A stretch of DNA of 53,953 nt, taken from positions 1 to 53,953 of the IMG/VR virus record IMGVR_UViG_3300019135_000051; one strand, written 5' to 3'. The notes beneath the pieces were generated by a model. That model saw only the letters and a program-made list of their open reading frames with translations. It had not been told where the DNA came from and made no database searches. This DNA comes from a virus. Its lineage: Duplodnaviria > Caudoviricetes. Below are positions 38,075 to 51,288 of this stretch, one piece after another. Every line of letters starts with the position of its first letter. Position 1 is the first letter of the stretch. A program made the position numbers and the translations under genes.

Positions 38075-38932
38075 TTGTCGGATTTAAAGTTGGCTGTTTC
38101 TGAAAAATTAACTTATTGCACGGTCAGAATTGAATGCATCTTAAAAGACGGATCTACAAGTACTGGAACCGGATTCTTTTTTAATTTCCTTGAGGGAAAC
38201 AACAGGTATTTACCTACTATCGTGACTAATAAACATGTAGTCAAAGATGCAGTAATAGGGAGAATTCCAATTACAATTCAGGATAGTAACGGTAACCCTC
38301 AAACAGGCTCTTATTTTAATGTTGAGGTACCAGACTTTGAGCGTAAATGTATTTTTCATCCTGAGGATGATGTTGACCTTTGTGTATTACCGATCACCTT
38401 TATACTCAATACATTAGAATCACACGGCGTAAAAGCTTATAATCTAGCATTAACTAAAGCGCAAATTCCAACTGCTGAAGATCTGAACGATTTGACAGCT
38501 TTGGAAGAAGTAATAATGATTGGTTATCCAAACGGAATATGGGATCATGTGAATAACTTACCAATTGTTCGCAGTGGTGTAACAGCAACGCACCCTAATA
38601 TTGACTATCAAGGTAGACCAGAATTTATGATTGATGCAGCTTGTTTCCCTGGCTCTAGTGGATCTCCGGTACTGCTCTATAATCAGGGTTCATACGTATC
38701 AAAATCTAAGGGTGTACTTATCGGAGGAACAAGATTAATGCTTTTAGGTGTCCTCTATGCCGGCCCCCAACATACGGCCTCGGGGGAAATAAAAATCGTC
38801 AACATTCCTACGAGACAAGAACCGGTGGTCATTTCAAGAGTACCAAATAATTTAGGACTGATCATAAAGTCTCGTAAGATAATAGAGTTCGAAGAAATCC
38901 TAAGAAATTTAATCGCAGAGAAGAATAAATAA
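38075..38932 (+). CDS. Trypsin-like serine protease (moron)
   Basis: GTGFF, VTNKHV (His), VDLC (Asp), PGSSGSP (Ser). Confidence 0.9.
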   Translation: MSDLKLAVSEKLTYCTVRIECILKDGSTSTGTGFFFNFLEGNNRYLPTIVTNKHVVKDAVIGRIPITIQDSNGNPQTGSYFNVEVPDFERKCIFHPEDDVDLCVLPITFILNTLESHGVKAYNLALTKAQIPTAEDLNDLTALEEVIMIGYPNGIWDHVNNLPIVRSGVTATHPNIDYQGRPEFMIDAACFPGSSGSPVLLYNQGSYVSKSKGVLIGGTRLMLLGVLYAGPQHTASGEIKIVNIPTRQEPVVISRVPNNLGLIIKSRKIIEFEEILRNLIAEKNK

Positions 38933-39600: not shown

Positions 39601-40206
39601 TTATCGAATGTCATCAATCAGGTAAACCGAGGATGGCATACCCTCGCATATGTCTCTGAACCGCCTTACTCTGCCGGGGCTGACCGTTACGATGTGAAGG
39701 GTGGGGAAGTATCCAAACTGCTGTTGAAACAAGCCTCGGTCGAACATCTCCCGATATCTCTTGATTTTTGCGCTGTTTTCGACCATGGTCTGAGTGTTAT
39801 CGACCTCTAGAAAGTGATACTGCTTATTCTTCATGAACAGGGCGTCTGCAACGAGCGTGGTCTGCCCATCAGTCACCTTGATCTCGTTTCTCCAATTGAC
39901 AGGACAGCCGACATGGAAAAAGAAATCGTTTCGCATCAGAGTGTGTCTGATTTGGAGGGTGCGTTTGACCACCTTTTTAGAGCCGATCATCTGCCGGCCG
40001 TGCTTATTCAGGTAGTAGACTGTGCCATACCGCTCTTCCCGGAAACTGTGAACGAGATCTCCCATCTGCCTGAGTACCTTCTGGGCGTTCCGATCACCGC
40101 CCAAGCGGTGCAGCCGCTGGAGTTGCCCTCTACTCAAAAAACCGAATCTGTCCAAGCTGTGCAGGATCTGCTCCTGTCTTTCTAACCTGTTCACGGCGAC
40201 TCTCAT
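39601..40206 (-). CDS. Replication-relaxation (Replic_Relax) family protein
   Basis: LDRFGFLSRGQL wHTH, YYL, HTLMRND, VADA...FLEVD. Confidence 0.85.
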   Translation of the reverse strand: MRVAVNRLERQEQILHSLDRFGFLSRGQLQRLHRLGGDRNAQKVLRQMGDLVHSFREERYGTVYYLNKHGRQMIGSKKVVKRTLQIRHTLMRNDFFFHVGCPVNWRNEIKVTDGQTTLVADALFMKNKQYHFLEVDNTQTMVENSAKIKRYREMFDRGLFQQQFGYFPTLHIVTVSPGRVRRFRDICEGMPSSVYLIDDIR

Positions 40207-41458
40207 CGCTGGCCTCCTTCCTTGGCTTGATTACGATGTTTGGCTGAACGACATACCGGATGGTCTTTGTGTCGATGAGCGGAGTCTGCACGATCTGCCG
40301 TTTGTCAGCGGTCTGAAAGATAGCTCGCCCTTTGATCTCAGGTAGAGTTTCGGCCCCGGTATCATCAAGTACGACACGGGAAGCGGTCCCGTTCTGCACG
40401 CGGAAGCATAGCTTCGCATCACTGTTTTGCTTGCACTGGCGAGGTATGACATCGCCGGTGGGGTACTGTGTGGCCAGGATCTGACGGTAACCAAGACCGG
40501 CACCGAGACGGGCAATCGTGCTCATGTACGTCTGGCAGCGTTCCTTCAGAGCGCGTTCTTCCTTTGTCACCGCCTCATCAGGGTTGAGTTCGCCGACCTC
40601 ATCGACGATTACGAAATGCCGAAAGGGGTCCTTGGCCTCCTGTACGTTTTTCACACCGCGTCGCTTGAGCGCCTGTTGCTTTTCCCGCATCTCCACTACA
40701 ACGGCCTGCAATGCCTTCTCAGCTTCTTCAGGCTCCTCAGCGTAGTGGGAGACCTGCTTCGCATCCTGGAATTCATGGAACTCTACGCCGCCTTTGAGGT
40801 CGACAAGCGTAAAACGAACGTGATCTGGCTGCTGTGCGATCAACGTGGCGATCAACATATTGAGAAAGTTGCTTTTTCCGTATCGGGTCGCGCCGCCAAC
40901 GACCATATGCGGCGTTTGATCGAAGTCGTGGTAGATGATGGTGTTGCTCTCCCTGATCTGGCCAACGGGAACCTTCCAGTCCCCGACAAGCGGAGCGTCT
41001 TCATAGTTTAACAGGGGCGGTAACGGAGTGTGATAGACCCGCACCTTGAGCAGGCCATCATAAATTAACTCCACCTCCTTCTTTACCGCTTTCCTCGTGA
41101 GGAGCATTTTGACTTGTGGAATCAGTGGCTGCCCCCAGTCTATCTTCATGAAATCCGCCAATGTTACCTGAAAAGGCATCTTTCGGTTGTTCAGACCGTC
41201 CTGGATGTGGTTGAGCTTTGCAAGGTAATCCTCAAAACTCCGTCCGAGCGGGATCCGGTAGCTGTACTCCGTTCCCCAGGTGTGGGCCCGCTTTTTGATC
41301 AGTTGCGCCGTGTAAGTCTTATCCTTGTCGCGGACGTTCAGGCCAGTGAGCGTAAAGATTTTGTTTATTTTGTCGCTGTCGCTCGTCAATCCGGATTTTT
41401 TAATTTTTGCATAAAACGCAATCCCTCCCATGATGGCAGTAGTGAAGACCTCAATCAT
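40130..41458 (-). CDS. FtsK/SpoIIIE-domain ATPase
   Basis: PHMVVGGATRYGKS, DLKGG, VDEVGEL, ATQYP. Confidence 0.92.
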   Translation of the reverse strand: MIEVFTTAIMGGIAFYAKIKKSGLTSDSDKINKIFTLTGLNVRDKDKTYTAQLIKKRAHTWGTEYSYRIPLGRSFEDYLAKLNHIQDGLNNRKMPFQVTLADFMKIDWGQPLIPQVKMLLTRKAVKKEVELIYDGLLKVRVYHTPLPPLLNYEDAPLVGDWKVPVGQIRESNTIIYHDFDQTPHMVVGGATRYGKSNFLNMLIATLIAQQPDHVRFTLVDLKGGVEFHEFQDAKQVSHYAEEPEEAEKALQAVVVEMREKQQALKRRGVKNVQEAKDPFRHFVIVDEVGELNPDEAVTKEERALKERCQTYMSTIARLGAGLGYRQILATQYPTGDVIPRQCKQNSDAKLCFRVQNGTASRVVLDDTGAETLPEIKGRAIFQTADKRQIVQTPLIDTKTIRYVVQPNIVIKPRKEASDESRREQVRKTGADPAQLGQIRFFE

Positions 41459-41728: not shown

Positions 41729-41953
41729 ATGTTTGGATTGGGCAAGCCCAGATCACGGTTTGGTAAGTGGTTGGACCGGAACGGGATCACACAAGAGGAG
41801 TTATCAAGAGAAAGTGGGGTGAATAAGTCAACAATCAGCCGAATATGCAGCGGTGATGCCTTTAAGCCCTCAATACGGAGTGCAGCCAAAATTATCAAGG
41901 CACTCCGGAACAGAGGCAAGGATGTGACCATGGATGATTTTTGGTCGATGTAG
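41729..41953 (+). CDS. XRE HTH regulator divergent from the FtsK operon
   Basis: GITQEELSRESGVNKSTISRIC. Confidence 0.88.
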   Translation: MFGLGKPRSRFGKWLDRNGITQEELSRESGVNKSTISRICSGDAFKPSIRSAAKIIKALRNRGKDVTMDDFWSM

Positions 41954-42172: not shown

Positions 42173-42266
42173 AACAAATAAACCTTACGTAGCCAAAAGA
42201 AAGAAAAACCGCAGTAGAATGCGGTTTTTGCGGTCAGATTAACCACCGGAAACACGATTGATCAAA

Positions 42267-42311
42267 TTGACAGGGTGGGGGTCGCTGGTTCGAACCCAGT
42301 CCGGATCACCA
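42267..42311 (+). tRNA. 3' half of tRNA-Val(GAC) = attR core (not a full tRNA)
   Basis: TTGACAGGGTGGGGGTCGCTGGTTCGAACCCAGTCCGGATCACCA: anticodon loop GAC, T-arm GGTTCGAA, CCA end; no 5' half upstream. Confidence 0.9.
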
Positions 42312-42326
42312 TACATAAGACGTTGG

Positions 42327-42352
42327 AACCCTTGCGGAAGCAGGGGTTTTTC
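42327..42352 (+). terminator. Terminator downstream of the tRNA 3' end
   Basis: AACCCTTGC GGAA GCAGGGGTT followed by TTT. Confidence 0.7.
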
Positions 42353-42428
42353 ATTTTTCTGTTTCTGTATAAGTAAGAGCGTACGGTCACCTCAATGCCT
42401 TTTGACGACCACTTGGTGACCAAAGGCT

Positions 42429-42597
42429 CTAGTTACCTGTTTTCTTGAATAATAACTCGTTAATTGCATTTGATGATTCTGCTTGCATGGTGGGCTGAAC
42501 ATGGCTGTATGTGTCCAGTGTTTCTGGTATTCCTGTGTACTAGACGCTCTGGAACTACTTTGACATGAATACCCTGTTTTAGAAGAAGAGTGGCGTA
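42429..42597 (-). pseudogene. C-terminal remnant of a second tyrosine integrase
   Basis: Minus strand reads YATLLLKQGIHVKVVPERL, then after a frameshift ETLDTYSHVQPTMQAES... Confidence 0.82.
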
Positions 42598-42668
42598 CCG
42601 ATCCCGGACGCTAGTCATGTGTGAGGACCAATACGCGAATCTGAGTGCGGCGCAGGGGTATGCTTATC

Positions 42669-43560
42669 CAGAAGTCGCAAGGCGTTCAGATTCCTGTTCA
42701 AGACGTAGAAATGCGTGCGTTGGACGTGTATGAGCGTCTTGTGGAGGTGGGCGCATGATCGAGTTCGAACAAGCCCGCCACCGTTTGGAGGAACTCGGAT
42801 TGGGCCAAGCGGCCCAATCACTCGATGCAAAGTTGGAAGCCGCCAGCCGCAACCAAAGCACGTATCTCTCTTTCCTCAACGAATTGCTAGATGCTGAGAT
42901 TCAAGAGCGCCAGCGCCGAAACGTGGGGGTTCGCATGAAGCTGTTCCACCTGCCTTATCGGCGCGCGCTGAGCGAGTTCGATTTCTCCTTTCAACCGGGG
43001 ATTGATGAGCGACTGATTCGTGAACTGGCGGCGCTGTCCTTCGTTGGGAGGCAAGAAAATGTACTGTTTCTTGGTCCTCCTCGCGTGGGGAAAACGCATT
43101 TAGCAATTGCCATTGCCATGGAGGCCATTGGACAAAGATTGCCTGTGTATTTCGTTTCACTCGCACAGCTCGTGGGCTGCAAACAGCTTACGAAGAGAAG
43201 CGCCTGGACAAGCGAATGAGGGTATATCTTCGTCCGCGCATCCTCATCGTAGACGAGGTGGGATACCTCCCTCTCCATCCGCTTGCTGCAAACCTGATTT
43301 TTCAGTTGGTTTGTGCACGCTACGAGAAAGGAAGCATGATTCTAACTAGCAACAAAAGCTTCGGCGAGTGGGGTGAACTCATGGGCGATCACGTTCTTGC
43401 AACAGCTGTTCTTGATCGCTTATTGCATCACTCCCACGTCGTGAACATCCGAGGGAACAGCTACCGACTCAAAGAAAAACTAAAAACCGGAATCTATTCG
43501 ACGCTAGGCGCACAGGTGGGTCAAAATTATCCCGGCGTTGAGAGTTTTGATAGCCATTAA
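42669..43560 (+). mobile_element. istB: Degenerate IS21-family element: istA C-terminal stub plus frameshifted istB
   Basis: VEMRALDVYERL stub; FDFSFQP, GPPRVGKTHLA, DEVGY, TSNK, LDRLLHH, GNSYR split across two frames. Confidence 0.88.
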
Positions 43561-44166: not shown

Positions 44167-44718
44167 CTAAATAAGAGTTGAGAAATTATGAAGATGAGGC
44201 GTAAGGCTTGTACACCTCGGAATGACAATATCCGTTAAAAGAGTTGTTCTTAAATCTTTTTTGGGGTGAAAAACTTGGACGAAGTCCGTAGTTTATCAAG
44301 CTATTACCTTTCTTTAGGTACTATTAATGATATTTTTATGTGTGCTTTTCTAAACTGTCACATTGCATTTTTAGCTTTACTTTAAGTCATTTTTGAAAGT
44401 CTAAAAACATAAACGCACTGTCAACTTACGTTTTTGCAACACATTTACCATGAGTCCCCTATGATATGGGAAGTAGCTTCTCATAACTGATGACAAGGAA
44501 TTTACCTAATACAACTAATAAGACTGTATAAAGTGTTAGGATCACAAAGCAACATTGGTAGTTATACGGGTTTTTTCTGTATGTACTTACCTGTTGCTGT
44601 TGTGGCCACCAAAAATGAATGTCTTAAATGGCAATAGTCGGTAGAAAGTGTTAAACAATGTTGATAAAATAGGAAATTAGTAATGGGTTGTTGTGGAATA
44701 TTTTTGAGGAGGCTCGGC

Positions 44719-46518
44719 ATGGCAAACAAGGTATTAATAGTAAAGAAATTAATGAGTTCTGATCTTGGGTGGTTTGCTGTATGTCGTACCCCGGATATTA
44801 CTAGAGCAAAGCAATGTGGATTGAATATAGATACCAAATTCATAACGAATTTATTTAATAACATAGAGGATCAGAATTCTATCCCAGTGGAAGTTTGTTA
44901 TTGGCAAAATGGAGACTCTGTACCTTTTAAAAAAAATTTTGAGATTCGGCATCAAGGCAAAAATTGGCGACTTACAGGGAAAATTGAAGGGGATTTTTAC
45001 TCGGGACTAAAACCAGGAGACTATATACTCCTTTTCTTTAATATTGACAGTGGTAAAACTAGTATCTATTGGGAGCTTGCTTGCCAAGATCCAAATATGG
45101 GTAGAACAGCACTTTATAAGTATATTGATAATGAAATAGGAGAAAACTCTATCGTCCATGATTCAACTATTAAAGAAAAAATTTTAAGCTTTCTAAAAGA
45201 TATAAACACAGAACTGCATGACTTTGTTAAGAATTCAGAGGTGGTGCACCAACAAGTTAAGAGAGCATTTTCATCTCGCCACGTTCTTGCAGATATTATG
45301 GCAACCGTAGTTACACTTTCTAGTAAAACACAAGTTGAATATTTAGACATCCTGGAACGTATTGTCGAACGGTTCAGATATCTTCTACGGGATCAGATTT
45401 TCTCAATAGACTTAAACCATAAACAAATGTGGGATTCTGTAAAGGGTATGAAACTTGGATTTATAGATGGTGGAGTTGCCTCAATTAGTTCACTTGGTTC
45501 TGAACCTATTGCTATAAGAGTGGGTGAATATACAGTTAAGCCTGGAATAATTGGTGATGACAGAGAGACTTTTAAGTTCAAAGCTCAACTTGTAGACGAG
45601 CTATATGACTACGAAAGTAGTATCTTCGATGAGTATTCTGATAACTTTCCTAAATTACTTGATATGGCGAGGATTTTTACAGAAGCTGGAGCAGTATACA
45701 AATCAATAAAAGAAGAGGACAAATGTGATTTCCTATTTTTACATGGCCCTTTGGTTAACCCGGCTGCACCTTATGCTGATTTACCCAAGTTTACTAACAA
45801 GGCTTTAGAAATGTTTGGGCTAAATCGAAACGACATAATACAAGGTGTGGTACCTCCCCCCGGTTATGAGTCTCACTTTATAGCTGTATATCAATATTTA
45901 CTACATTCAATCTTTAAAAGTGATACACCTATATGCGGCATTGTAGAACGTAGTGCAGGTTCTCGAATTGTATCAATGACTTTGCTAAATCAACTAGCAA
46001 AACGAGGATTTGCAATGGAAGCAGATCAGATTGCTAGTTCAATGAAGGAAAATCGAATCTCTGATGCGATACTTTTCTCTTGTTTATTGAAAGAAGGGGA
46101 GTATATTCGACCTATAAATATTGATAAGAATGAATTAGGAAAATCACCAGACAGATGGAAATCCGTAATTGATAACTATCCTGAGCCTCTAACAACTTAC
46201 TTGAAAGCAACGGATACCTCGTATCCTTTTAGAGTCGAACTGAACAAATCTTTTAATGAACACAGTCAATTCATAATAAGCTTGGTTTATCATATGGCTA
46301 GATTGCTCCCTCAATATGCTTTCCCTGTTGGCCTAGACATCGTTGATAAGTTTGCAAAAGTACCAGCTTGGATGACCAAGCAGATATCGAAGGAGCAGAG
46401 TGCTCAAATACTTAGTAAAGCTTTAACATCAGGAAGAAGAGATGTTGTCGATCTTGTTAGATTATACTTGTCTGGAAACTCTCGGGATTGGCTATTTAGG
46501 CCGAAATATGACCGTTAA
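44719..46518 (+). CDS. NurA-family nuclease with N-terminal EcoRII-N/B3-like domain
   Basis: GFIDGG, FLHGPL, ICGIVER, PFRVE, AFPVGLDIVDKFAKV; RBS GAGGAGG; upstream of HerA. Confidence 0.82.
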   Translation: MANKVLIVKKLMSSDLGWFAVCRTPDITRAKQCGLNIDTKFITNLFNNIEDQNSIPVEVCYWQNGDSVPFKKNFEIRHQGKNWRLTGKIEGDFYSGLKPGDYILLFFNIDSGKTSIYWELACQDPNMGRTALYKYIDNEIGENSIVHDSTIKEKILSFLKDINTELHDFVKNSEVVHQQVKRAFSSRHVLADIMATVVTLSSKTQVEYLDILERIVERFRYLLRDQIFSIDLNHKQMWDSVKGMKLGFIDGGVASISSLGSEPIAIRVGEYTVKPGIIGDDRETFKFKAQLVDELYDYESSIFDEYSDNFPKLLDMARIFTEAGAVYKSIKEEDKCDFLFLHGPLVNPAAPYADLPKFTNKALEMFGLNRNDIIQGVVPPPGYESHFIAVYQYLLHSIFKSDTPICGIVERSAGSRIVSMTLLNQLAKRGFAMEADQIASSMKENRISDAILFSCLLKEGEYIRPINIDKNELGKSPDRWKSVIDNYPEPLTTYLKATDTSYPFRVELNKSFNEHSQFIISLVYHMARLLPQYAFPVGLDIVDKFAKVPAWMTKQISKEQSAQILSKALTSGRRDVVDLVRLYLSGNSRDWLFRPKYDR

Positions 46519-46530
46519 AGGGGAAAAGTC

Positions 46531-48216
46531 ATGACTAATATTTGGAAACATATAGGAACTGTTGTTGGAAATACAGATACACAAGAATATACCTTCATTC
46601 TCAAGAAATTCAAATCCAGAGTAGGAGATATAGTATGTGTTAAAATGTTAATTCCTACAGAAGACTATATCTCAACGAAACAAGTATTAGTATGGGGAAG
46701 AGTTGTTTCTATAGAACGATATAATCCGTTCTTTCCTTTTGAAGCAGCACAAGAATTAGGTGAGAATGGCATTAACATAATTGATACAGTTCTTTCCAAT
46801 AGCCGAGACCAACTTCAAGCAAGGGTACTAGTTCTAGGTTATACGAATGAAGGAGATAGCAAATACAATCTTTTCCCAGTTACCTATCCAATCGAGCCAG
46901 CAGCTGAAGTTGTGTTTCCCCCATCTGATGTAATTACGCTTTTATTGCAAGGAGAACAAAAAGACACAAGTATTCATGTTGGGAGTCTTATATCACGCAG
47001 TGACGTTGGGGTATCGTTAAGAGCTAACCCCATCGTTGCTCGTCACATGGCAATCTTGGCTATGACAGGTGGTGGTAAATCAGTAGCCTCCAGACGAATT
47101 ATAAGGGAACTGGCAAACCAAGGTTATCCCCTTCTTATACTCGATCCTCATGGTGACTACTTGTCTCTTGCAGAACACCAAGAAAAGTTTGAAGGAAACA
47201 AGATAAAGCTCTTTTATCCACATATAAAAATAAACAGCAGAAACGAATACATGATAAAAATGCTCATTGCAAAGATGACAAAGGGCTTGACCGAACCACA
47301 ACAAGAAGTACTTGACTTAGCCCTTGAAAATGAAATACCAAGAAATGAGGTTAGTATTAGAGACTACATTGGTACCTTAATATCTAGAATCGATCAAATG
47401 CAAGTAGCTTCTACACTTAATCGTTCTAAAGGTGCACTAAAGCGTGCATTGAGGTTTGTGGATGAAAAACTTAACGCTATGGAGGCATCAAACCAACAAT
47501 TACGAACTAGGTTAGATAATTTTGATTTTAAGGAACTCCCTGATCCTATAGACAACCCAAACGGAATTATTGCCCCTAATCAAATATCTATCTTATATTT
47601 AGGTGGTTATGACCATATAACTCAAAGTACTATCGTTTCTATATTATTGGATGCAATGTTTAACCATAGAGCTACTATGACTAACCGAATACCTCCTTTC
47701 TTTACAGTAGTTGAAGAAGCTCACAATTTCATTCCTTCCCATTCAGAAGGTCAAAGTGATACTCCTTCTCTGGAATCAATTAGAAGAATCATTACTGAGG
47801 GAAGAAAATTTGGAACTGGGCTATTATTAATAAGTCAACGACCAAGTCGATTAGACCAAACTATTTTATCTCAATGTAACTCGTTTCTAATTTTACGACT
47901 TGTAAATCCAAAAGATCAGAACTTTGTGCGTCAGGTAATGGAAAATCTTTCTGAATCTGATGCAAGAATGCTTCCAGCGTTTGGTCCCGGTCAGGGGTTA
48001 ATTAGCGGACAGGCGGTTCGGTTTCCACTTTTAGTTAAGATAAAAATGGACGAAGACCTTATTCCGAGTACTATTGGGGATGAGAATTTTATTGAACAAG
48101 CAAAAGCGTGGGGGCAATCTCAAGAAGCTGAAGAAGTGGCCATTTCAAATGCAACAACAGAGTTTTTAAAGCGAGCTTCTAGACGTAAAAAACGGGTGAA
48201 TAGCAATGGAAAATGA
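46531..48216 (+). CDS. HerA-family ATPase/helicase (HAS barrel plus P-loop)
   Basis: HMAILAMTGGGKS, DPHGDY, VEEAHNF, EGRKFG, ISQRPS. Confidence 0.92.
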   Translation: MTNIWKHIGTVVGNTDTQEYTFILKKFKSRVGDIVCVKMLIPTEDYISTKQVLVWGRVVSIERYNPFFPFEAAQELGENGINIIDTVLSNSRDQLQARVLVLGYTNEGDSKYNLFPVTYPIEPAAEVVFPPSDVITLLLQGEQKDTSIHVGSLISRSDVGVSLRANPIVARHMAILAMTGGGKSVASRRIIRELANQGYPLLILDPHGDYLSLAEHQEKFEGNKIKLFYPHIKINSRNEYMIKMLIAKMTKGLTEPQQEVLDLALENEIPRNEVSIRDYIGTLISRIDQMQVASTLNRSKGALKRALRFVDEKLNAMEASNQQLRTRLDNFDFKELPDPIDNPNGIIAPNQISILYLGGYDHITQSTIVSILLDAMFNHRATMTNRIPPFFTVVEEAHNFIPSHSEGQSDTPSLESIRRIITEGRKFGTGLLLISQRPSRLDQTILSQCNSFLILRLVNPKDQNFVRQVMENLSESDARMLPAFGPGQGLISGQAVRFPLLVKIKMDEDLIPSTIGDENFIEQAKAWGQSQEAEEVAISNATTEFLKRASRRKKRVNSNGK

Positions 48217-49954
48217 TCTTATAGTGTTTTCACATGAATTTCAACAACAAGTTCTGCTGAGTATGCAAAACTCTGACGTTGAAGAAAGAGAGAACTGTTT
48301 TACTGAATATATGATAAATTGCTTAATTGAGGACGGTACACTGGAAGACGGTATCCCACTTTATTACAGAAAGGGTGGGATGCAAATAAATGGCTACTCA
48401 TTTGTTGAAGAGACTGGTATTTTAAACCTTTTTGTTAGCCAGTACAATGCAGCTTCACCACCAGCAAATGTCAGATTAAGTGACTTGGATTCAGCGTTGA
48501 ATCGACTGTTTTTGTTCCTCAAAAAGACTTTAAATGGCCTAAATAACAATCTAGAAAAGGGAACCCCTATTAACGATCTCATACTTAGACTTTTTGAAGA
48601 AAAGGAATCAATAACAAAGGTCAATCTTTATTTTTTAACAGATGGAGTAATCAAAAAAACTTGGAATAAGGAACTATCTTTAGATAACTTAGAGATTGAG
48701 GTTCATTTATGGGACATCGAAAGGTTATTTCGAACTATTACCTCAGGAAAGAATAGAGAAGCTATTGAGATCGATTTTGAAAAACTAGGATATTCTATTC
48801 CCTGTCTTGAGATGCCAGAAAAAAACGAAACATATGAAACCTATCTTGCAATTTTTCCCGCAATTTTATTAGTAGAGATATATGGGAAATATCGTTCACG
48901 TCTTCTTGAAGGTAATGTTAGATCTTTTCTTCAAATCCGGGGAAGTGTGAATAAAGGAATACGTGATACGATAAAAAATGAGCCACATATGTTTCTTGCT
49001 TACAACAATGGAATTTCAGCCGTAGCTGAGAGTGCAGAAATTGTGAAAACTCCTAAGGGTCTTGCGATACGAAAGGTTAGAGATTTGCAGATTGTAAATG
49101 GGGGCCAAACAACTGCGACACTTTACTATGTATATAAAAAAGATCGTGTAAGTCTAAAAGGTGTTAGCGTTCAAGTAAAGCTTACCGTAGTTTCAGATCC
49201 AGCGACTATGGGGGAAATTGTACCCAAAATATCGGAGTATGCTAACAGTCAGAATAAAATACAAGGTGCTGATTTCTCTTCGAATCATCCCTACCATCGG
49301 GCACTTGAAGAGCTTTCAAGGACTGTTTGGGCCCCTGTTGTTGGTGGTATGCAGCGACAAACTAAGTGGTATTATGAACGAGCTCGAGGCCAGTATTTGG
49401 TAGATAGGGGTAGAGAAAATACACTGACTCACAAGCGTAACTTTGATGCGGAATTCCCCAAAAATCAAAAATTTGATAAAACGGATCTGGCTAAGTATGT
49501 AAACGTATGGCAACAAAAGCCATACGTTGTTAGCCGTGGTGCACAAAAAAACTTTAATGAGTTTATGGATTACATTAACGAAGAAAAGATACCGTTGCCC
49601 GTTCAATCAGATTATGAAAAGCTTATTGCATTAGCAATTTTATACAGGAAAGCCGAGCAATTATTAAACGAACAAAAAGATAGATACCCGGCTTACCGTT
49701 CCTATATAGTGGCATACTCTATCGCTTGGATTTCTTATGTAACAGATGGTGAGATAGATCTACATAAAATATGGCGAGAACAAGATATTGATGATTCCAT
49801 AAAAGAAAGCTTAAATTATATTTTTCCTTATGCTAATAAACATATTACTAACGCACCAGGTAGCGGTAATATTACGGAATGGGCTAAAAAGAAAGAGTGT
49901 TGGGATGCCTTCACCAAATTAGATATCGATATTCCAGACTCTTTGATTGAGTGA
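48206..49954 (+). CDS. AIPR-family protein
   Basis: RLLEGNVRSFLQ, FLAYNNGISA, QIVNGGQTT, ANSQN, WYYERARGQY. Confidence 0.92.
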   Translation: MENDLIVFSHEFQQQVLLSMQNSDVEERENCFTEYMINCLIEDGTLEDGIPLYYRKGGMQINGYSFVEETGILNLFVSQYNAASPPANVRLSDLDSALNRLFLFLKKTLNGLNNNLEKGTPINDLILRLFEEKESITKVNLYFLTDGVIKKTWNKELSLDNLEIEVHLWDIERLFRTITSGKNREAIEIDFEKLGYSIPCLEMPEKNETYETYLAIFPAILLVEIYGKYRSRLLEGNVRSFLQIRGSVNKGIRDTIKNEPHMFLAYNNGISAVAESAEIVKTPKGLAIRKVRDLQIVNGGQTTATLYYVYKKDRVSLKGVSVQVKLTVVSDPATMGEIVPKISEYANSQNKIQGADFSSNHPYHRALEELSRTVWAPVVGGMQRQTKWYYERARGQYLVDRGRENTLTHKRNFDAEFPKNQKFDKTDLAKYVNVWQQKPYVVSRGAQKNFNEFMDYINEEKIPLPVQSDYEKLIALAILYRKAEQLLNEQKDRYPAYRSYIVAYSIAWISYVTDGEIDLHKIWREQDIDDSIKESLNYIFPYANKHITNAPGSGNITEWAKKKECWDAFTKLDIDIPDSLIE

Positions 49955-50015
49955 TGTTTACTTTTATAAAATACTAGAGTATTCTATTGAAGCTAAAGAA
50001 TTTTGGGGTGAGACC

Positions 50016-51251
50016 ATGAATTTCATTGATATATTTGCAGGGGCTGGTGGACTTTCAGAAGGATTTGTCAGACAGGGTTTTTTGCCAATTGCCCATGTTG
50101 AAATGAATCGGGATGCTGCTCTCACTCTAAAAACAAGGATGGTATATCATGAACTGAAGAAAAGTAATCAGTTAGATATATATAATAACTATCTCCTTGG
50201 AAGTATTACGAGAGACGAGTTGTATAAAACGAATCCACAGGTTGAGAATTTCGTTATTCAAAAGGAAATTTCTGATGAGACCATTGATTCAATATTTAAC
50301 ACAATAGACAAGAATTTAAAAGAATTAAAACAGAAGAGTGTTGATATTCTTATCGGTGGGCCGCCGTGTCAGGCGTATTCATTAGTTGGAAGAGCTAGAG
50401 ATCCTTATGGGAAAGAACATGATCCAAGAAATTATCTGTATAAGCAATATATAAAATTCCTCATAAGATACGAACCTAAAATGTTTATCTTTGAAAATGT
50501 TCCAGGTATCCTTACTGCTGGCAAAGGTCAGTTGTTTAATGATGTTAAGAAATATATGGACGAGGCTGGTTACGATATTAAAGCAGAGACGCTTGATGCT
50601 TCTGACTTTGGAGTATTACAAAAGAGATTTAGAGTTATCTTAGTTGGATGGAAGAAGGGAACCAAATACAGTTATCCAATTTTGGAAAAGCAGTCACATA
50701 ACTTTCTAGTCAAAGATTTACTTATTGATTTACCAAGGCTTCATCCAGGGCAATCAATAAATTGTGGTGATTATACAGGAGAGCCTACGAGGTACCTGCA
50801 ACAATTCAAAATTAGAGATAAAGAAGATATTTTGATTCAACATATAACTAGGCCTCATAATGAGAGAGATCGAGAAATTTATGAACATGTAATCAATACT
50901 TGGGAAAAGGAAAATAGACGTCTGAAGTATAATGAGTTACCTGAGAGATTAAAGACTCATAAGAATAGGGAATCTTTCTTAGACCGTTTTAAAGTGGTAG
51001 GTTCTAATCAACCTTACTCACATACATTGGTTGCACATATTGCCAAAGATGGACACTACTATATTCACCCGGACATTACACAATTAAGATCTATTTCAGT
51101 TCGTGAAGCAGCAAGGATACAATCATTTCCCGATAATTACTTTTTTGAGGGTTCAAGAACTGCAGCATTTACGCAAATTGGAAACGCTGTACCTCCTTTG
51201 ATGTCTGAAGCTCTTGCGATGAAGCTTAAGGAAATGATCTCTTCAGTATAA
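50016..51251 (+). CDS. dcm: C5 cytosine DNA methyltransferase
   Basis: FAGAGG (I), GGPPCQ (IV), ENV (VI), QKRFR (VIII), REAARIQSFPD (IX), IGNAVPP (X). Confidence 0.96.
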   Translation: MNFIDIFAGAGGLSEGFVRQGFLPIAHVEMNRDAALTLKTRMVYHELKKSNQLDIYNNYLLGSITRDELYKTNPQVENFVIQKEISDETIDSIFNTIDKNLKELKQKSVDILIGGPPCQAYSLVGRARDPYGKEHDPRNYLYKQYIKFLIRYEPKMFIFENVPGILTAGKGQLFNDVKKYMDEAGYDIKAETLDASDFGVLQKRFRVILVGWKKGTKYSYPILEKQSHNFLVKDLLIDLPRLHPGQSINCGDYTGEPTRYLQQFKIRDKEDILIQHITRPHNERDREIYEHVINTWEKENRRLKYNELPERLKTHKNRESFLDRFKVVGSNQPYSHTLVAHIAKDGHYYIHPDITQLRSISVREAARIQSFPDNYFFEGSRTAAFTQIGNAVPPLMSEALAMKLKEMISSV

Positions 51252-51257
51252 GTTGTA

Positions 51258-51288
51258 AGCCACTTCTTTTTGGAGTGGCTAATTTTTT
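51258..51288 (+). terminator. Terminator of the NurA-HerA-AIPR-MTase operon
   Basis: AGCCACTTC/GGAGTGGCT hairpin followed by a T-run. Confidence 0.7.

What the first reader, a model, noticed from the sequence alone, without database searches (positions are those of the whole stretch)
44719..51288. Candidate undescribed restriction-like defence operon: B3/EcoRII-N-NurA + HerA + AIPR + C5 methyltransferase
Seen: four co-oriented intact genes with 12 bp, overlapping and ~60 bp junctions and one terminator. They are AT-rich and sit among IS21 and integrase debris in a tRNA island. Known: HerA-NurA is a helicase-nuclease end-resection machine; HerA is also the motor of anti-phage pairs such as Sir2-HerA and DUF4297-HerA; AIPR and C5 MTases are linked to R-M-type loci. 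No classical REase, MORC/MutL or Z1 gene is present. Inference: the MTase marks self, while NurA-HerA acts as an ATP-driven processive restriction nuclease, with AIPR as accessory or abortive partner. I do not know a named system with this exact composition.
Basis: partly seen in the sequence, partly recalled or inferred. Interest (0 to 1): 0.88.

Follow-up and report, generated by a model that had tools for sequence, protein, structure and literature searches.

The report
Methylase-linked NurA-HerA restriction cassette
Four tightly packed foreign genes (a DNA-shredding NurA nuclease carrying a restriction-enzyme-type DNA reader, its HerA motor, an AIPR protein and a cytosine methylase) look like an unnamed kind of restriction-modification immune system that recurs in many bacterial phyla.

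Summary
Four co-oriented intact genes lie at 44719-51251, with a 12-nt gap, an 11-nt overlap, a 61-nt gap and one terminator. Their GC is 34-38%, against 49-58% in the prophage to the left.

- Gene 1 has an N-terminal B3/EcoRII-N fold (VIA Z 10.0 to EcoRII-N) and a NurA fold (Z 17.8 to Sulfolobus NurA).
- Gene 2 is HerA.
- Gene 3 is AIPR.
- Gene 4 is a complete C5 methyltransferase.

Linkage is conserved. HerA follows this NurA in 87 of 88 distinct loci. Among 60 loci with full flanks, a C5 methylase lies within 6 kb in 53, Vsr in 50 and AIPR in 30, across at least 12 phyla.

No named system matched. PADLOC has no model for the NurA. The MzaE and HerA equivalog cut-offs are missed. Full-text searches found no description.

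The most likely reading is an ATP-driven restriction-modification system in which B3-NurA plus HerA is the restriction arm. The role of AIPR is open. The closest precedents are CglI/NgoAVII and TdpABC.

The scan had already noted related methylase-linked HerA-NurA cassettes on other DNA. DefenseFinder and REBASE could not be consulted.

The parts
44642..44670 (+). Weak sigma-70-like promoter match (TAGAAA-17-TAAAAT with TG) upstream of gene 1
   Evidence: It matches 9 of 12 positions. The region has no more such matches than its shuffles (25 found, 28.8 expected), so this is only a candidate.
44719..45132 (+). N-terminal B3 / EcoRII-N-like DNA-binding pseudobarrel of gene 1 (residues 1-138)
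   Evidence: The domain model has pLDDT 90.4. VIA search of 48,161 chains gave EcoRII-N 3hqf_A at Z 10.0, rmsd 3.0, 117 aligned, 20% identity. BfiI-C 3zi5_D scored 9.8 and LlaJI.R1-N 6c5d_A scored 8.7. The top 13 rows are all B3-type, and the next row has Z 3.3. Foldseek's top hits are TEM1 B3, EcoRII and BfiI. Residues L11, S14, F19, Q32, N82, W83, G87 and D101 are invariant in 29 sequences.
45310..46518 (+). NurA-fold nuclease core of gene 1 (about residues 198-599); residues 139-197 are a helical linker
   Evidence: The whole model has pLDDT 84.2. Foldseek: 2ygk_A, E 4.6e-9. VIA: 2ygk_A Z 17.8 (264 aligned), 9x1m_G 16.8, 3taz_B 15.6, TdpB 8wfd_G 14.3, 7f6d_G 11.2. PF09376 is matched by 20 of 25 family members at E<=1 (best 2.5e-9), but not by the window's own protein. 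Invariant acidic and His residues include D250, E283, E322, H342, E410, E461, E507, H525 and D543 (numbering).
46531..48216 (+). HerA-type hexameric ATPase/translocase
   Evidence: PF01935, 2.6e-29. PADLOC HerA PDLC04105, 4.5e-54. The closest solved sequence is T. kodakarensis HerA 9x1l_A at 6.4e-39; TdpA 8wet_A reaches only 1.8e-7. The Walker A lysine is K183 and Walker B reads EEAH at 395-398. A HerA gene follows NurA in 87 of 88 distinct loci.
48206..49954 (+). AIPR family protein (AIPR_N + AIPR core)
   Evidence: PF10592, 5.5e-100; PF22879, 7.4e-35. PADLOC MzaE, 2.7e-95; AbiU, 3.2e-28. NCBIfam MzaE scores 400 bits against a cut-off of 1050. PHROG 1841 'Abi alpha-like', 2.5e-40. No solved relative by sequence. 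An AIPR gene lies within 6 kb of NurA in 30 of 60 complete loci.
50016..51251 (+). C5 cytosine DNA methyltransferase, all catalytic motifs present
   Evidence: PF00145, 1.6e-60. TIGR00675 dcm, 172 bits against a cut-off of 100.65. The best PADLOC model is DrmMII PDLC02649, 592 bits. M.HaeIII is the closest solved sequence. Motifs FAGAGG, GPPCQ (C118), ENV, QKRFR and GNAVPP were read.
51258..51280 (+). Intrinsic-terminator-like hairpin closing the operon
   Evidence: 9-bp stem with 5 GC pairs and a 5-nt loop, followed by a T-rich tail.

Best explanation
The cassette is a horizontally acquired, methylation-based restriction-modification-like defence system. Its restriction arm is a NurA-HerA nuclease-motor complex rather than a classical restriction endonuclease.

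Shown:
- The four genes form one compact, co-oriented, AT-rich unit.
- Gene 1 fuses a B3/EcoRII-N DNA-reading fold to a NurA fold.
- Gene 2 is a canonical-type HerA.
- Gene 4 is a complete C5 methyltransferase.
- This NurA family is nearly always followed by HerA and usually has a C5 methylase and Vsr within 6 kb.

Inferred:
- The methylase marks a short site on the cell's own DNA.
- The B3 domain of NurA binds that site when it is unmethylated. B3 domains do this in EcoRII, BfiI and the R-proteins of CglI/NgoAVII.
- This licenses the HerA hexamer to pump the DNA into a NurA dimer, which degrades it with ATP hydrolysis.
- AIPR is an accessory. It may be a second DNA sensor or regulator, or an abortive back-up. 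I cannot tell which.
For: Anatomy:
- Gene spacing, ribosome-binding sites and a single terminator fit one operon.
- GC is 0.34-0.38 against about 0.5 elsewhere, and a split IS21 gene lies beside the cassette.

Folds:
- B3/EcoRII-N, Z 10.0. All 13 top rows are B3 domains; 7 of them are from restriction enzymes and 6 from plant B3 proteins.
- NurA, Z 17.8.

HerA is closest to the HerA of a solved HerA-NurA complex.

Synteny, from 114 fetched loci reduced to 101 distinct ones:
- HerA follows NurA in 87 of 88 loci that have at least 2 kb downstream.
- Among 60 loci with at least 4 kb upstream and 6 kb downstream, a C5 MTase is present in 53, Vsr in 50 and AIPR in 30. Sample ORFs were checked with Pfam.
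- The family occurs in at least 12 phyla by record titles, and the HerA tree does not follow taxonomy.
- It is rare: 192 relatives in one genome for each of 185,579 species, and 215 clusters at 50% identity.

Precedent in print: CglI/NgoAVII combine a C5 MTase, a B3-bearing nuclease and an ATPase, and cleave only unmethylated sites with ATP hydrolysis (PMC4267653, passages read).

In one architecture HerA and AIPR share a C-terminal domain of about 79 aa (L008, E 8e-12). This ties AIPR to the motor in those loci.
Against: - There is no functional data of any kind.
- The window's NurA does not reach the Pfam NurA model even at E<=1. Its active site was not mapped onto a solved NurA.
- Seven of 60 complete loci have no C5 MTase within 6 kb: six Pelagibacteraceae loci and L046. 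The pair can therefore exist without a methylase.
- AIPR is missing in half of the loci. In many it lies on the opposite strand.
- The MTase and AIPR families are far larger than the NurA family. They also co-occur on contigs that do not appear among the NurA hits. AIPR + MTase may therefore be a module of its own.
- Known HerA defence systems (Sir2-HerA, DUF4297-HerA) act by abortive infection and have no methylase (abstracts listed).
- The window has no Vsr gene within 6 kb.
Confidence: 0.6

Rival explanations
1. Two juxtaposed modules rather than one system. An AIPR + C5 methylase unit (an R-M-associated or abortive-infection module of its own) happens to sit next to a self-sufficient NurA-HerA defence or repair pair in a defence island.
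For: - Close AIPR and MTase homologues share contig lengths with each other (26425, 23390, 19313, 445501, 30455, 257112, 13517). These lengths do not appear among the NurA hits.
- AIPR is absent in 30 of 60 complete loci. In the largest clade it is on the opposite strand.
Against: - In the window HerA and AIPR overlap by 11 nt, and all four genes share one terminator.
- The C5 MTase stays with NurA-HerA in 53 of 60 loci, although order and strand are rearranged.
- HerA and AIPR share a C-terminal domain in L008.
- The B3 fusion on NurA makes sense only if a site-specific mark exists.
Confidence: 0.2
2. An abortive-infection system. NurA-HerA, with or without AIPR, is held inactive and, on a phage cue, degrades DNA indiscriminately, as Sir2-HerA and DUF4297-HerA do. 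The methylase then has another role, such as an epigenetic function or protection against other restriction enzymes.
For: - All experimentally studied bacterial HerA defence systems in the library are of this type (abstracts).
- AIPR matches AbiU and an 'Abi alpha-like' PHROG.
- Six Pelagibacteraceae loci and L046 lack a methylase.
Against: - A methylase plus Vsr accompanies the pair in 50 of 60 loci. This is the signature of self-marking.
- In solved restriction enzymes, B3 domains are site readers (PMC4267653).
Confidence: 0.12
3. A housekeeping double-strand-break end-resection machine, as the public annotation of the relatives says ('DNA double-strand break repair nuclease NurA'). The neighbours would be unrelated.
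For: - The names given by NCBI to P0006 and P0018.
- The fold and partner are the same as in the archaeal and Deinococcus HerA-NurA complexes.
Against: - The cassette is an AT-rich island beside IS debris.
- The family is in about 0.1% of species genomes and scattered over phyla.
- NurA carries a B3 reader fusion.
- Linkage to a methylase and Vsr is conserved.
- No Mre11 or Rad50 gene is in the cassette.
Confidence: 0.04

Closest known systems
CglI / NgoAVII ATP-dependent restriction-modification systems (PMC4267653)
   Same: - Logic: a C5 methyltransferase, a nuclease subunit that carries a B3-type DNA-recognition domain, and a separate ATPase.
- In those systems cleavage needs ATP hydrolysis and unmethylated sites (passages read).
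- The window's B3 domain matches R.NgoAVII B3 at Z 5.5 and EcoRII-N at Z 10.0.
   Different: - The nuclease domain here has the NurA (RNase H-like) fold, not PLD.
- The motor is a HerA ring ATPase, not an SF2 DEAD-Z1 protein.
- B3 is N-terminal here, C-terminal there.
- An AIPR gene is added.
TdpABC, phosphorothioate-based defence of thermophiles (TdpAB structures 8wet/8wfd). The paper itself was not in the library and was seen only as a citation.
   Same: A HerA-like ATPase with a NurA-like nuclease serves as the restriction arm of a system that marks its own DNA. TdpB is a clear structural match (8wfd_G, Z 14.3).
   Different: - The mark here is C5 methylation, not phosphorothioate, and there is no TdpC-type gene.
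- The HerA is much closer to canonical HerA (6.4e-39) than to TdpA (1.8e-7).
- The NurA is closer to archaeal NurA (Z 17.8) than to TdpB.
- B3 and AIPR are extra.
Archaeal and Deinococcus HerA-NurA end-resection complex
   Same: Best structural and sequence matches of both proteins. The two genes are adjacent.
   Different: - No Mre11 or Rad50 neighbours.
- Mobile AT-rich context.
- B3 fusion on NurA.
- Linked methylase, Vsr and AIPR.
- The Pfam NurA model is missed by the window's own protein.
MZA (mzaABCDE) and other Dcm/Vsr-linked AIPR operons with MutL/paraMORC and Z1 proteins
   Same: An AIPR protein of the MzaE type (PADLOC 2.7e-95) lies next to a C5 methylase. A few related loci also carry a paraMORC-like GHKL gene (4 of 60).
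   Different: - The cassette has no MutL-like, Z1 or other Mza component.
- The MzaE equivalog cut-off is missed: 400 bits against 1050.
- NurA-HerA takes the place of those ATPase and nuclease parts.
Sir2-HerA and DUF4297-HerA anti-phage pairs
   Same: A HerA ATPase is coupled to an effector enzyme. The PADLOC HerA models match.
   Different: - The effector is NurA with a DNA reader, not Sir2 or DUF4297.
- A methylase is linked.
- The NCBIfam anti-phage HerA equivalogs are missed: 128 and 100 bits against cut-offs of 850 and 800.

Membership tests
NurA (PF09376) | NurA / RNase H-like fold | tested here: met
   Foldseek: 2ygk_A, E 4.6e-9. VIA: Z 17.8, rmsd 4.0, 264 aligned, with four further NurA entries at Z 15-17.
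NurA (PF09376) | Match to the Pfam NurA profile | tested here: not met
   The window's protein has no PF09376 hit at E<=1. Of 25 aligned relatives, 20 match, the best at 2.5e-9. This is a divergent sister group of the curated family.
NurA (PF09376) | Conserved metal-binding acidic and His residues at the active site | tested here: inconclusive
   D250, E322, H342, E410, H525 and D543 are invariant in 25 sequences. They were not superposed residue by residue on a solved active site.
NurA (PF09376) | Adjacent HerA partner gene | tested here: met
   A 12-nt gap in the window. HerA follows NurA in 87 of 88 distinct loci.
HerA (PF01935; NCBIfam HerA equivalogs) | HerA central domain with Walker A and B motifs | tested here: met
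   PF01935, 2.6e-29. GGGKS at 180 and EEAH at 395.
HerA (PF01935; NCBIfam HerA equivalogs) | Score above the equivalog cut-offs (repair HerA 970/800; anti-phage HerA 850/800) | tested here: not met
   175, 133, 128 and 100 bits.
AIPR (PF10592 + PF22879) | Both Pfam domains above the gathering score | tested here: met
   335 and 121 bits against cut-offs of 25 and 28.
MZA system | MzaE equivalog score, plus MutL-like and Z1 partners | tested here: not met
   400 bits against a cut-off of 1050. None of the four cassette proteins or ten flank ORFs carries a GHKL or Z1 domain.
DISARM class 2 | DrmMII methylase together with DrmA, DrmB, DrmC and DrmE | tested here: not met
   The MTase matches the DrmMII model at 592 bits. 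No helicase, DUF1998 or PLD gene was found in the cassette or among the flank ORFs scanned. Only this window was examined.
Type II-like C5 R-M of the CglI/NgoAVII kind | C5 methyltransferase | tested here: met
   PF00145, 1.6e-60, with all motifs present.
Type II-like C5 R-M of the CglI/NgoAVII kind | B3 domain on the nuclease subunit | tested here: met
Type II-like C5 R-M of the CglI/NgoAVII kind | PLD nuclease domain and SF2 DEAD-Z1 ATPase | tested here: not met
   The nuclease has the NurA fold and the ATPase is HerA.
TdpABC | TdpC-type phosphorothioate-forming gene; TdpA and TdpB orthologues | tested here: not met
   The only modification gene in the cassette is a C5 MTase. TdpA scores 1.8e-7 against 6.4e-39 for canonical HerA. 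TdpB matches in fold only, Z 14.3.
Restriction-modification system in the functional sense | Methylation-dependent protection of self and cleavage of unmarked DNA | not testable with these tools
   This needs methylome mapping, plating and transformation assays.

The most novel reading that the evidence does not exclude
This family is a distinct, unnamed class of ATP-dependent restriction-modification system. A site reader licenses a NurA-HerA shredder that processively destroys unmethylated DNA. L010, with B3 and no AIPR, is sister to seven loci with AIPR and no B3. The window's Bacillota clade carries both readers and so has two layers of sensing. [quoted passage not shown]
Probability: 0.25. 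Interest if true: 0.82.

Novelty: new variant of a known kind. Interest (0 to 1): 0.68.

Why it matters
NurA-HerA is known as a DNA-repair machine. Its only published restriction role that I could find is in the sulfur-based TdpABC system. A widespread cytosine-methylation-linked version would show that the repair motor has been recruited repeatedly as a restriction arm.

This version fuses NurA to the kind of DNA reader that EcoRII, BfiI and NgoAVII use. That gives a directly testable prediction: the B3 domain should bind the unmethylated target of the neighbouring methylase.

The system also offers a tractable setting in which to learn what AIPR proteins do. Public annotation calls these genes double-strand-break repair nucleases, which is probably misleading.

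Tried and rejected
- Named-system look-ups. PADLOC-DB 2.0.0 gave 0 families for the NurA and only generic HerA, MzaE/AbiU and DrmMII/MTase_II hits for the others. NCBIfam equivalogs were all far below their cut-offs. PHROGs has no family for the NurA. The Atlas gave only 'NurA family protein'.

- Literature. Five full-text searches found no description of this gene set: NurA+HerA+anti-phage+methyltransferase, NurA+AIPR, NurA+HerA+phage+defense system, HerA+AIPR, and NurA/HerA/restriction/Dcm/defense islands/immunity with four of six terms required. A sixth search, NurA/Vsr/methylase, also found nothing relevant. In PMC10853773 NurA and AIPR occur 0 times. The TdpABC paper is not in the library.

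- Plasmids and phages. tblastn of the NurA found no match in either collection.

The first metagenome scan found nothing. The second found 31 loci, but none above 41% identity. The claim that the Bacillota clade shares all four genes therefore rests only on equal contig lengths.

- Shared HerA/AIPR tail. It is absent in the window and in L065, and present in L008.

- B3 and AIPR as mutually exclusive parts. They occur together in 0 of 60 loci (naive Fisher p 5.8e-6). On the HerA tree only 3 independent pairs exist: one goes the same way, one the other way and one does not differ (sign test p 1). Exclusivity is therefore not supported once kinship is counted.

- Island borders. No convincing flanking direct or inverted repeats were found.

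- Integrase remnant and tRNA. Neither was confirmed.

- Complex prediction was not used. AIPR plus HerA exceeds the size limit, there was no hypothesis about which domains touch, and NurA-HerA is a textbook pair.

Full report
**Observation**

The window holds four long, co-oriented ORFs on the + strand.
- Gene 1 starts at ATG 44719, behind a GAGGAGG ribosome-binding site. It ends at 46518 and gives 599 aa, identical to the database gene call P0005.
- Gene 2 runs 46531-48216 and starts 12 nt after the stop of gene 1.
- Gene 3 runs 48206-49954 and overlaps gene 2 by 11 nt.
- Gene 4 most likely starts at ATG 50016, behind GGGGTGAG. It ends at 51251 and gives 411 aa, identical to gene call P0310.

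A hairpin with a 9-bp stem and a T run at 51258-51280 follows directly. GC is 0.34-0.38 across 44-51 kb, against 0.49-0.58 over most of 1-37 kb.

To the left lie several other features:
- prophage tail and lysis genes;
- a Replic_Relax/FtsK pair and an HTH gene;
- a split IS21 istB gene at 42755-43560.

Only suggestive reading frames are visible. The tool that draws relatives says the window is a virus record. The proteins lie on a contig of 152,324 bases. The cassette sits beyond the apparent right end of the prophage, so it is not shown to be phage cargo.

**What the genes are**

Gene 1 has no Pfam hit of its own, but 20 of 25 aligned relatives match PF09376 NurA. An AlphaFold model built on that alignment has pLDDT 84.2. 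Its closest solved structures are:
- NurA of S. solfataricus (Foldseek E 4.6e-9; VIA Z 17.8, 264 aligned);
- NurA of T. kodakarensis (Z 16.8) and of P. furiosus (Z 15.6);
- TdpB (Z 14.3) and Deinococcus NurA (Z 11.2);
- Argonaute PIWI and EndoV lie around Z 10.

Residues 1-138 were modelled alone (pLDDT 90.4). They match EcoRII-N at Z 10.0 (rmsd 3.0, 117 aligned, 20% identity), BfiI-C at 9.8 and LlaJI.R1-N at 8.7. All 13 top rows are B3-type domains and the next row is Z 3.3. Foldseek agrees.

Twenty-five diverse relatives keep D250, E283, E322, H342, E410, E461, E507, H525 and D543 invariant. This fits an active metal-dependent nuclease, but I did not superpose the residues on a solved active site.

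The other three genes:
- Gene 2 is HerA (PF01935, 2.6e-29). It is closest to the HerA of the T. kodakarensis HerA-NurA complex (6.4e-39) and far from TdpA (1.8e-7).
- Gene 3 is AIPR (5.5e-100 and 7.4e-35). No solved relative was found by sequence.
- Gene 4 is a C5 methyltransferase with all motifs. M.HaeIII is the nearest solved sequence, and the best PADLOC model is DrmMII (592 bits).

**Relatives and linkage**

The NurA family is small. There are 215 clusters at 50% identity with E<=0.001. One genome for each of 185,579 species yielded 192 relatives.

I fetched 80 genome loci, 3 viral-contig loci and 31 metagenome loci (the first scan found nothing). I then called ORFs, clustered them and scored components by tblastn within 6 kb. 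Loci whose NurA proteins are at least 95% identical were collapsed, leaving 101 distinct loci.
- HerA follows NurA in 87 of the 88 loci with at least 2 kb downstream. The exception, L024, has a truncated HerA.
- Among the 60 loci with at least 4 kb upstream and 6 kb downstream:
  - a C5 MTase is present in 53;
  - Vsr in 50;
  - AIPR in 30;
  - a B3 domain on NurA in 15;
  - an AspBHI-like gene in 10;
  - a paraMORC-like GHKL gene in 4 (Pfam checks).
- The seven loci without a methylase are six Pelagibacteraceae loci and L046.

Recurrent gene orders are:
- Dcm > B3-NurA > HerA > Vsr;
- Vsr and Dcm divergent from NurA > HerA, with AIPR convergent;
- Dcm > NurA > HerA > AIPR;
- NurA with a different N-terminal extension > HerA, with Dcm downstream.

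Record titles span at least 12 phyla, and the HerA tree does not follow taxonomy.

**The window's own arrangement**

B3-NurA > HerA > AIPR > Dcm, without Vsr, was not seen in any of the 60 complete loci. The closest homologues of NurA (64-81% identity), of AIPR (70-84%) and of the MTase (64-83%) sit on contigs of equal length.
- Lengths 24494, 25488, 52311 and 972269 appear in all three searches.
- Lengths 155809 and 76158 appear for NurA and AIPR.
- Length 26972 appears for NurA and the MTase.

So a small Bacillota clade, including Brevibacillus laterosporus and Paenibacillus illinoisensis, probably shares the arrangement.

On a FastTree of 83 HerA proteins, the window is a deep unresolved branch in a 39-row clade (support 97). 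That clade also holds the B3 type and the co-oriented AIPR type. L010, with B3 and no AIPR, is sister to seven loci with AIPR and no B3 (support 100).

B3 and AIPR never occur together in the 60 loci (naive Fisher p 5.8e-6). The tree offers only three independent contrasts, with no trend, so I do not claim exclusivity.

In L008, HerA and AIPR share a C-terminal domain of about 79 aa (37% identity, E 8e-12). The window's shorter HerA and AIPR lack this domain, as does L065.

**Mechanism**

Shown: the anatomy, the folds and the synteny.

Inferred: a restriction-modification logic.
- The near-constant company of a C5 methylase and Vsr argues that the host's own DNA is methylated and that methylation matters to the neighbours.
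- The prokaryotic B3 domains among the solved matches are the site readers of restriction enzymes.
- In CglI/NgoAVII, a B3-bearing nuclease works with a separate ATPase and a C5 methylase. ATP hydrolysis and cleavage require unmethylated sites (PMC4267653, passages read).
- HerA-NurA complexes thread dsDNA through a HerA hexamer into a NurA dimer. A 2026 paper suggests an antiviral role for the archaeal complex (PMC12977600, abstract and passages).

I therefore propose the following sequence. B3-NurA recognises the unmethylated target of the neighbouring methylase. HerA then loads and feeds the DNA to NurA. Foreign DNA is degraded with ATP hydrolysis.

The role of AIPR is open. It could be a second sensor or regulator, or an abortive back-up. 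Older comparative papers only say that it is common in R-M operons (PMC2292703; PMC3506569).

**Comparison and novelty**

None of the named systems that I could test fits.
- MZA: no MutL or Z1 gene, and the equivalog cut-off is missed.
- DISARM: only the methylase matches.
- Sir2-HerA and DUF4297-HerA: a different effector.
- TdpABC: a different mark, and a distant TdpA.
- CglI/NgoAVII: a different nuclease and motor.
- The repair HerA-NurA operon: no Mre11 or Rad50, and a mobile context.

Full-text searches found no description. DefenseFinder, REBASE and paper supplements were out of reach, so 'unnamed' is provisional.

Earlier notes of this scan describe related methylase-linked HerA-NurA cassettes in other genomes, and name TdpABC as the closest known system. 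The same window also carries a first-reader note on the B3 fusion.

I rate this a new variant of a known kind: restriction-modification with a NurA-HerA restriction arm, a B3 reader and an AIPR partner.

Noticed in passing
L008:3319-5304 and L008:5320-7395: In the co-oriented Dcm>NurA>HerA>AIPR architecture, HerA and AIPR end in a shared domain of about 79 aa (37% identity, E 8e-12). The window's HerA and AIPR are about 100 aa shorter and lack it. L065 lacks it too.
   Followed up: partly
L065:7160-8335 (-), and 10 of 60 complete loci: A gene with RE_AspBHI_N + Mrr_cat domains sits next to the Dcm-Vsr pair of the cassette. This architecture is that of 5mC-dependent type IV enzymes. It is an odd neighbour for a C5 methylase.
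   Followed up: no
L016:12403-14493; also L081, L044, L046: A paraMORC-like GHKL ATPase gene (HATPase_c_3 + HATPase_c) lies beside the NurA-HerA cassette in 4 of 60 complete loci.
   Followed up: no
L068-L080 (Pelagibacteraceae), e.g. L073:9621-13268: NurA-HerA pairs of the same family have no methylase, Vsr or AIPR within 6 kb. They are flanked by conserved small ORFs without Pfam hits and by an AAA_15 ATPase gene at L073:5473-7266. This may be a different use of the pair.
   Followed up: partly
L079:9536-11332, L031:4760-6556, L052:9527-11332: A subgroup of about 600-aa NurA proteins carries a different N-terminal extension of roughly 170-190 aa. It does not match the B3 profile and has no Pfam hit. 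The methylase lies downstream of HerA in these loci.
   Followed up: no
(contig lengths 26425, 23390, 19313, 445501, 30455, 257112, 13517): Close AIPR and C5-methylase homologues co-occur on contigs that do not appear among the NurA hits. This suggests a wider AIPR+Dcm module with other partners in Bacillota.
   Followed up: no
window 38075-38932 (+): An AT-rich ORF (GC 0.37 in that kilobase) encodes a trypsin-like peptidase (PF13365, 3.3e-11). It lies between the lysis cassette and the FtsK module.
   Followed up: no
window 39601-41458 (-) and 41729-41953 (+): Replication-relaxation protein (2.9e-20) and FtsK/SpoIIIE ATPase (1e-23) genes lie on the minus strand, with a divergent HTH_3 gene. 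They sit at the apparent right end of the prophage, as another first-reader note also says.
   Followed up: partly
window 42240-42663: Reading frames here look like the 3' part of a tRNA gene, followed by the C-terminal end of a tyrosine recombinase on the minus strand. Neither ARAGORN, Rfam, Pfam, PHROGs nor BLASTP confirms either.
   Followed up: partly
window 42755-43560 (+): The IS21 istB gene is split into two overlapping ORFs by a frameshift (PF01695, 8e-38 and 5e-39). No istA gene was seen upstream.
   Followed up: no
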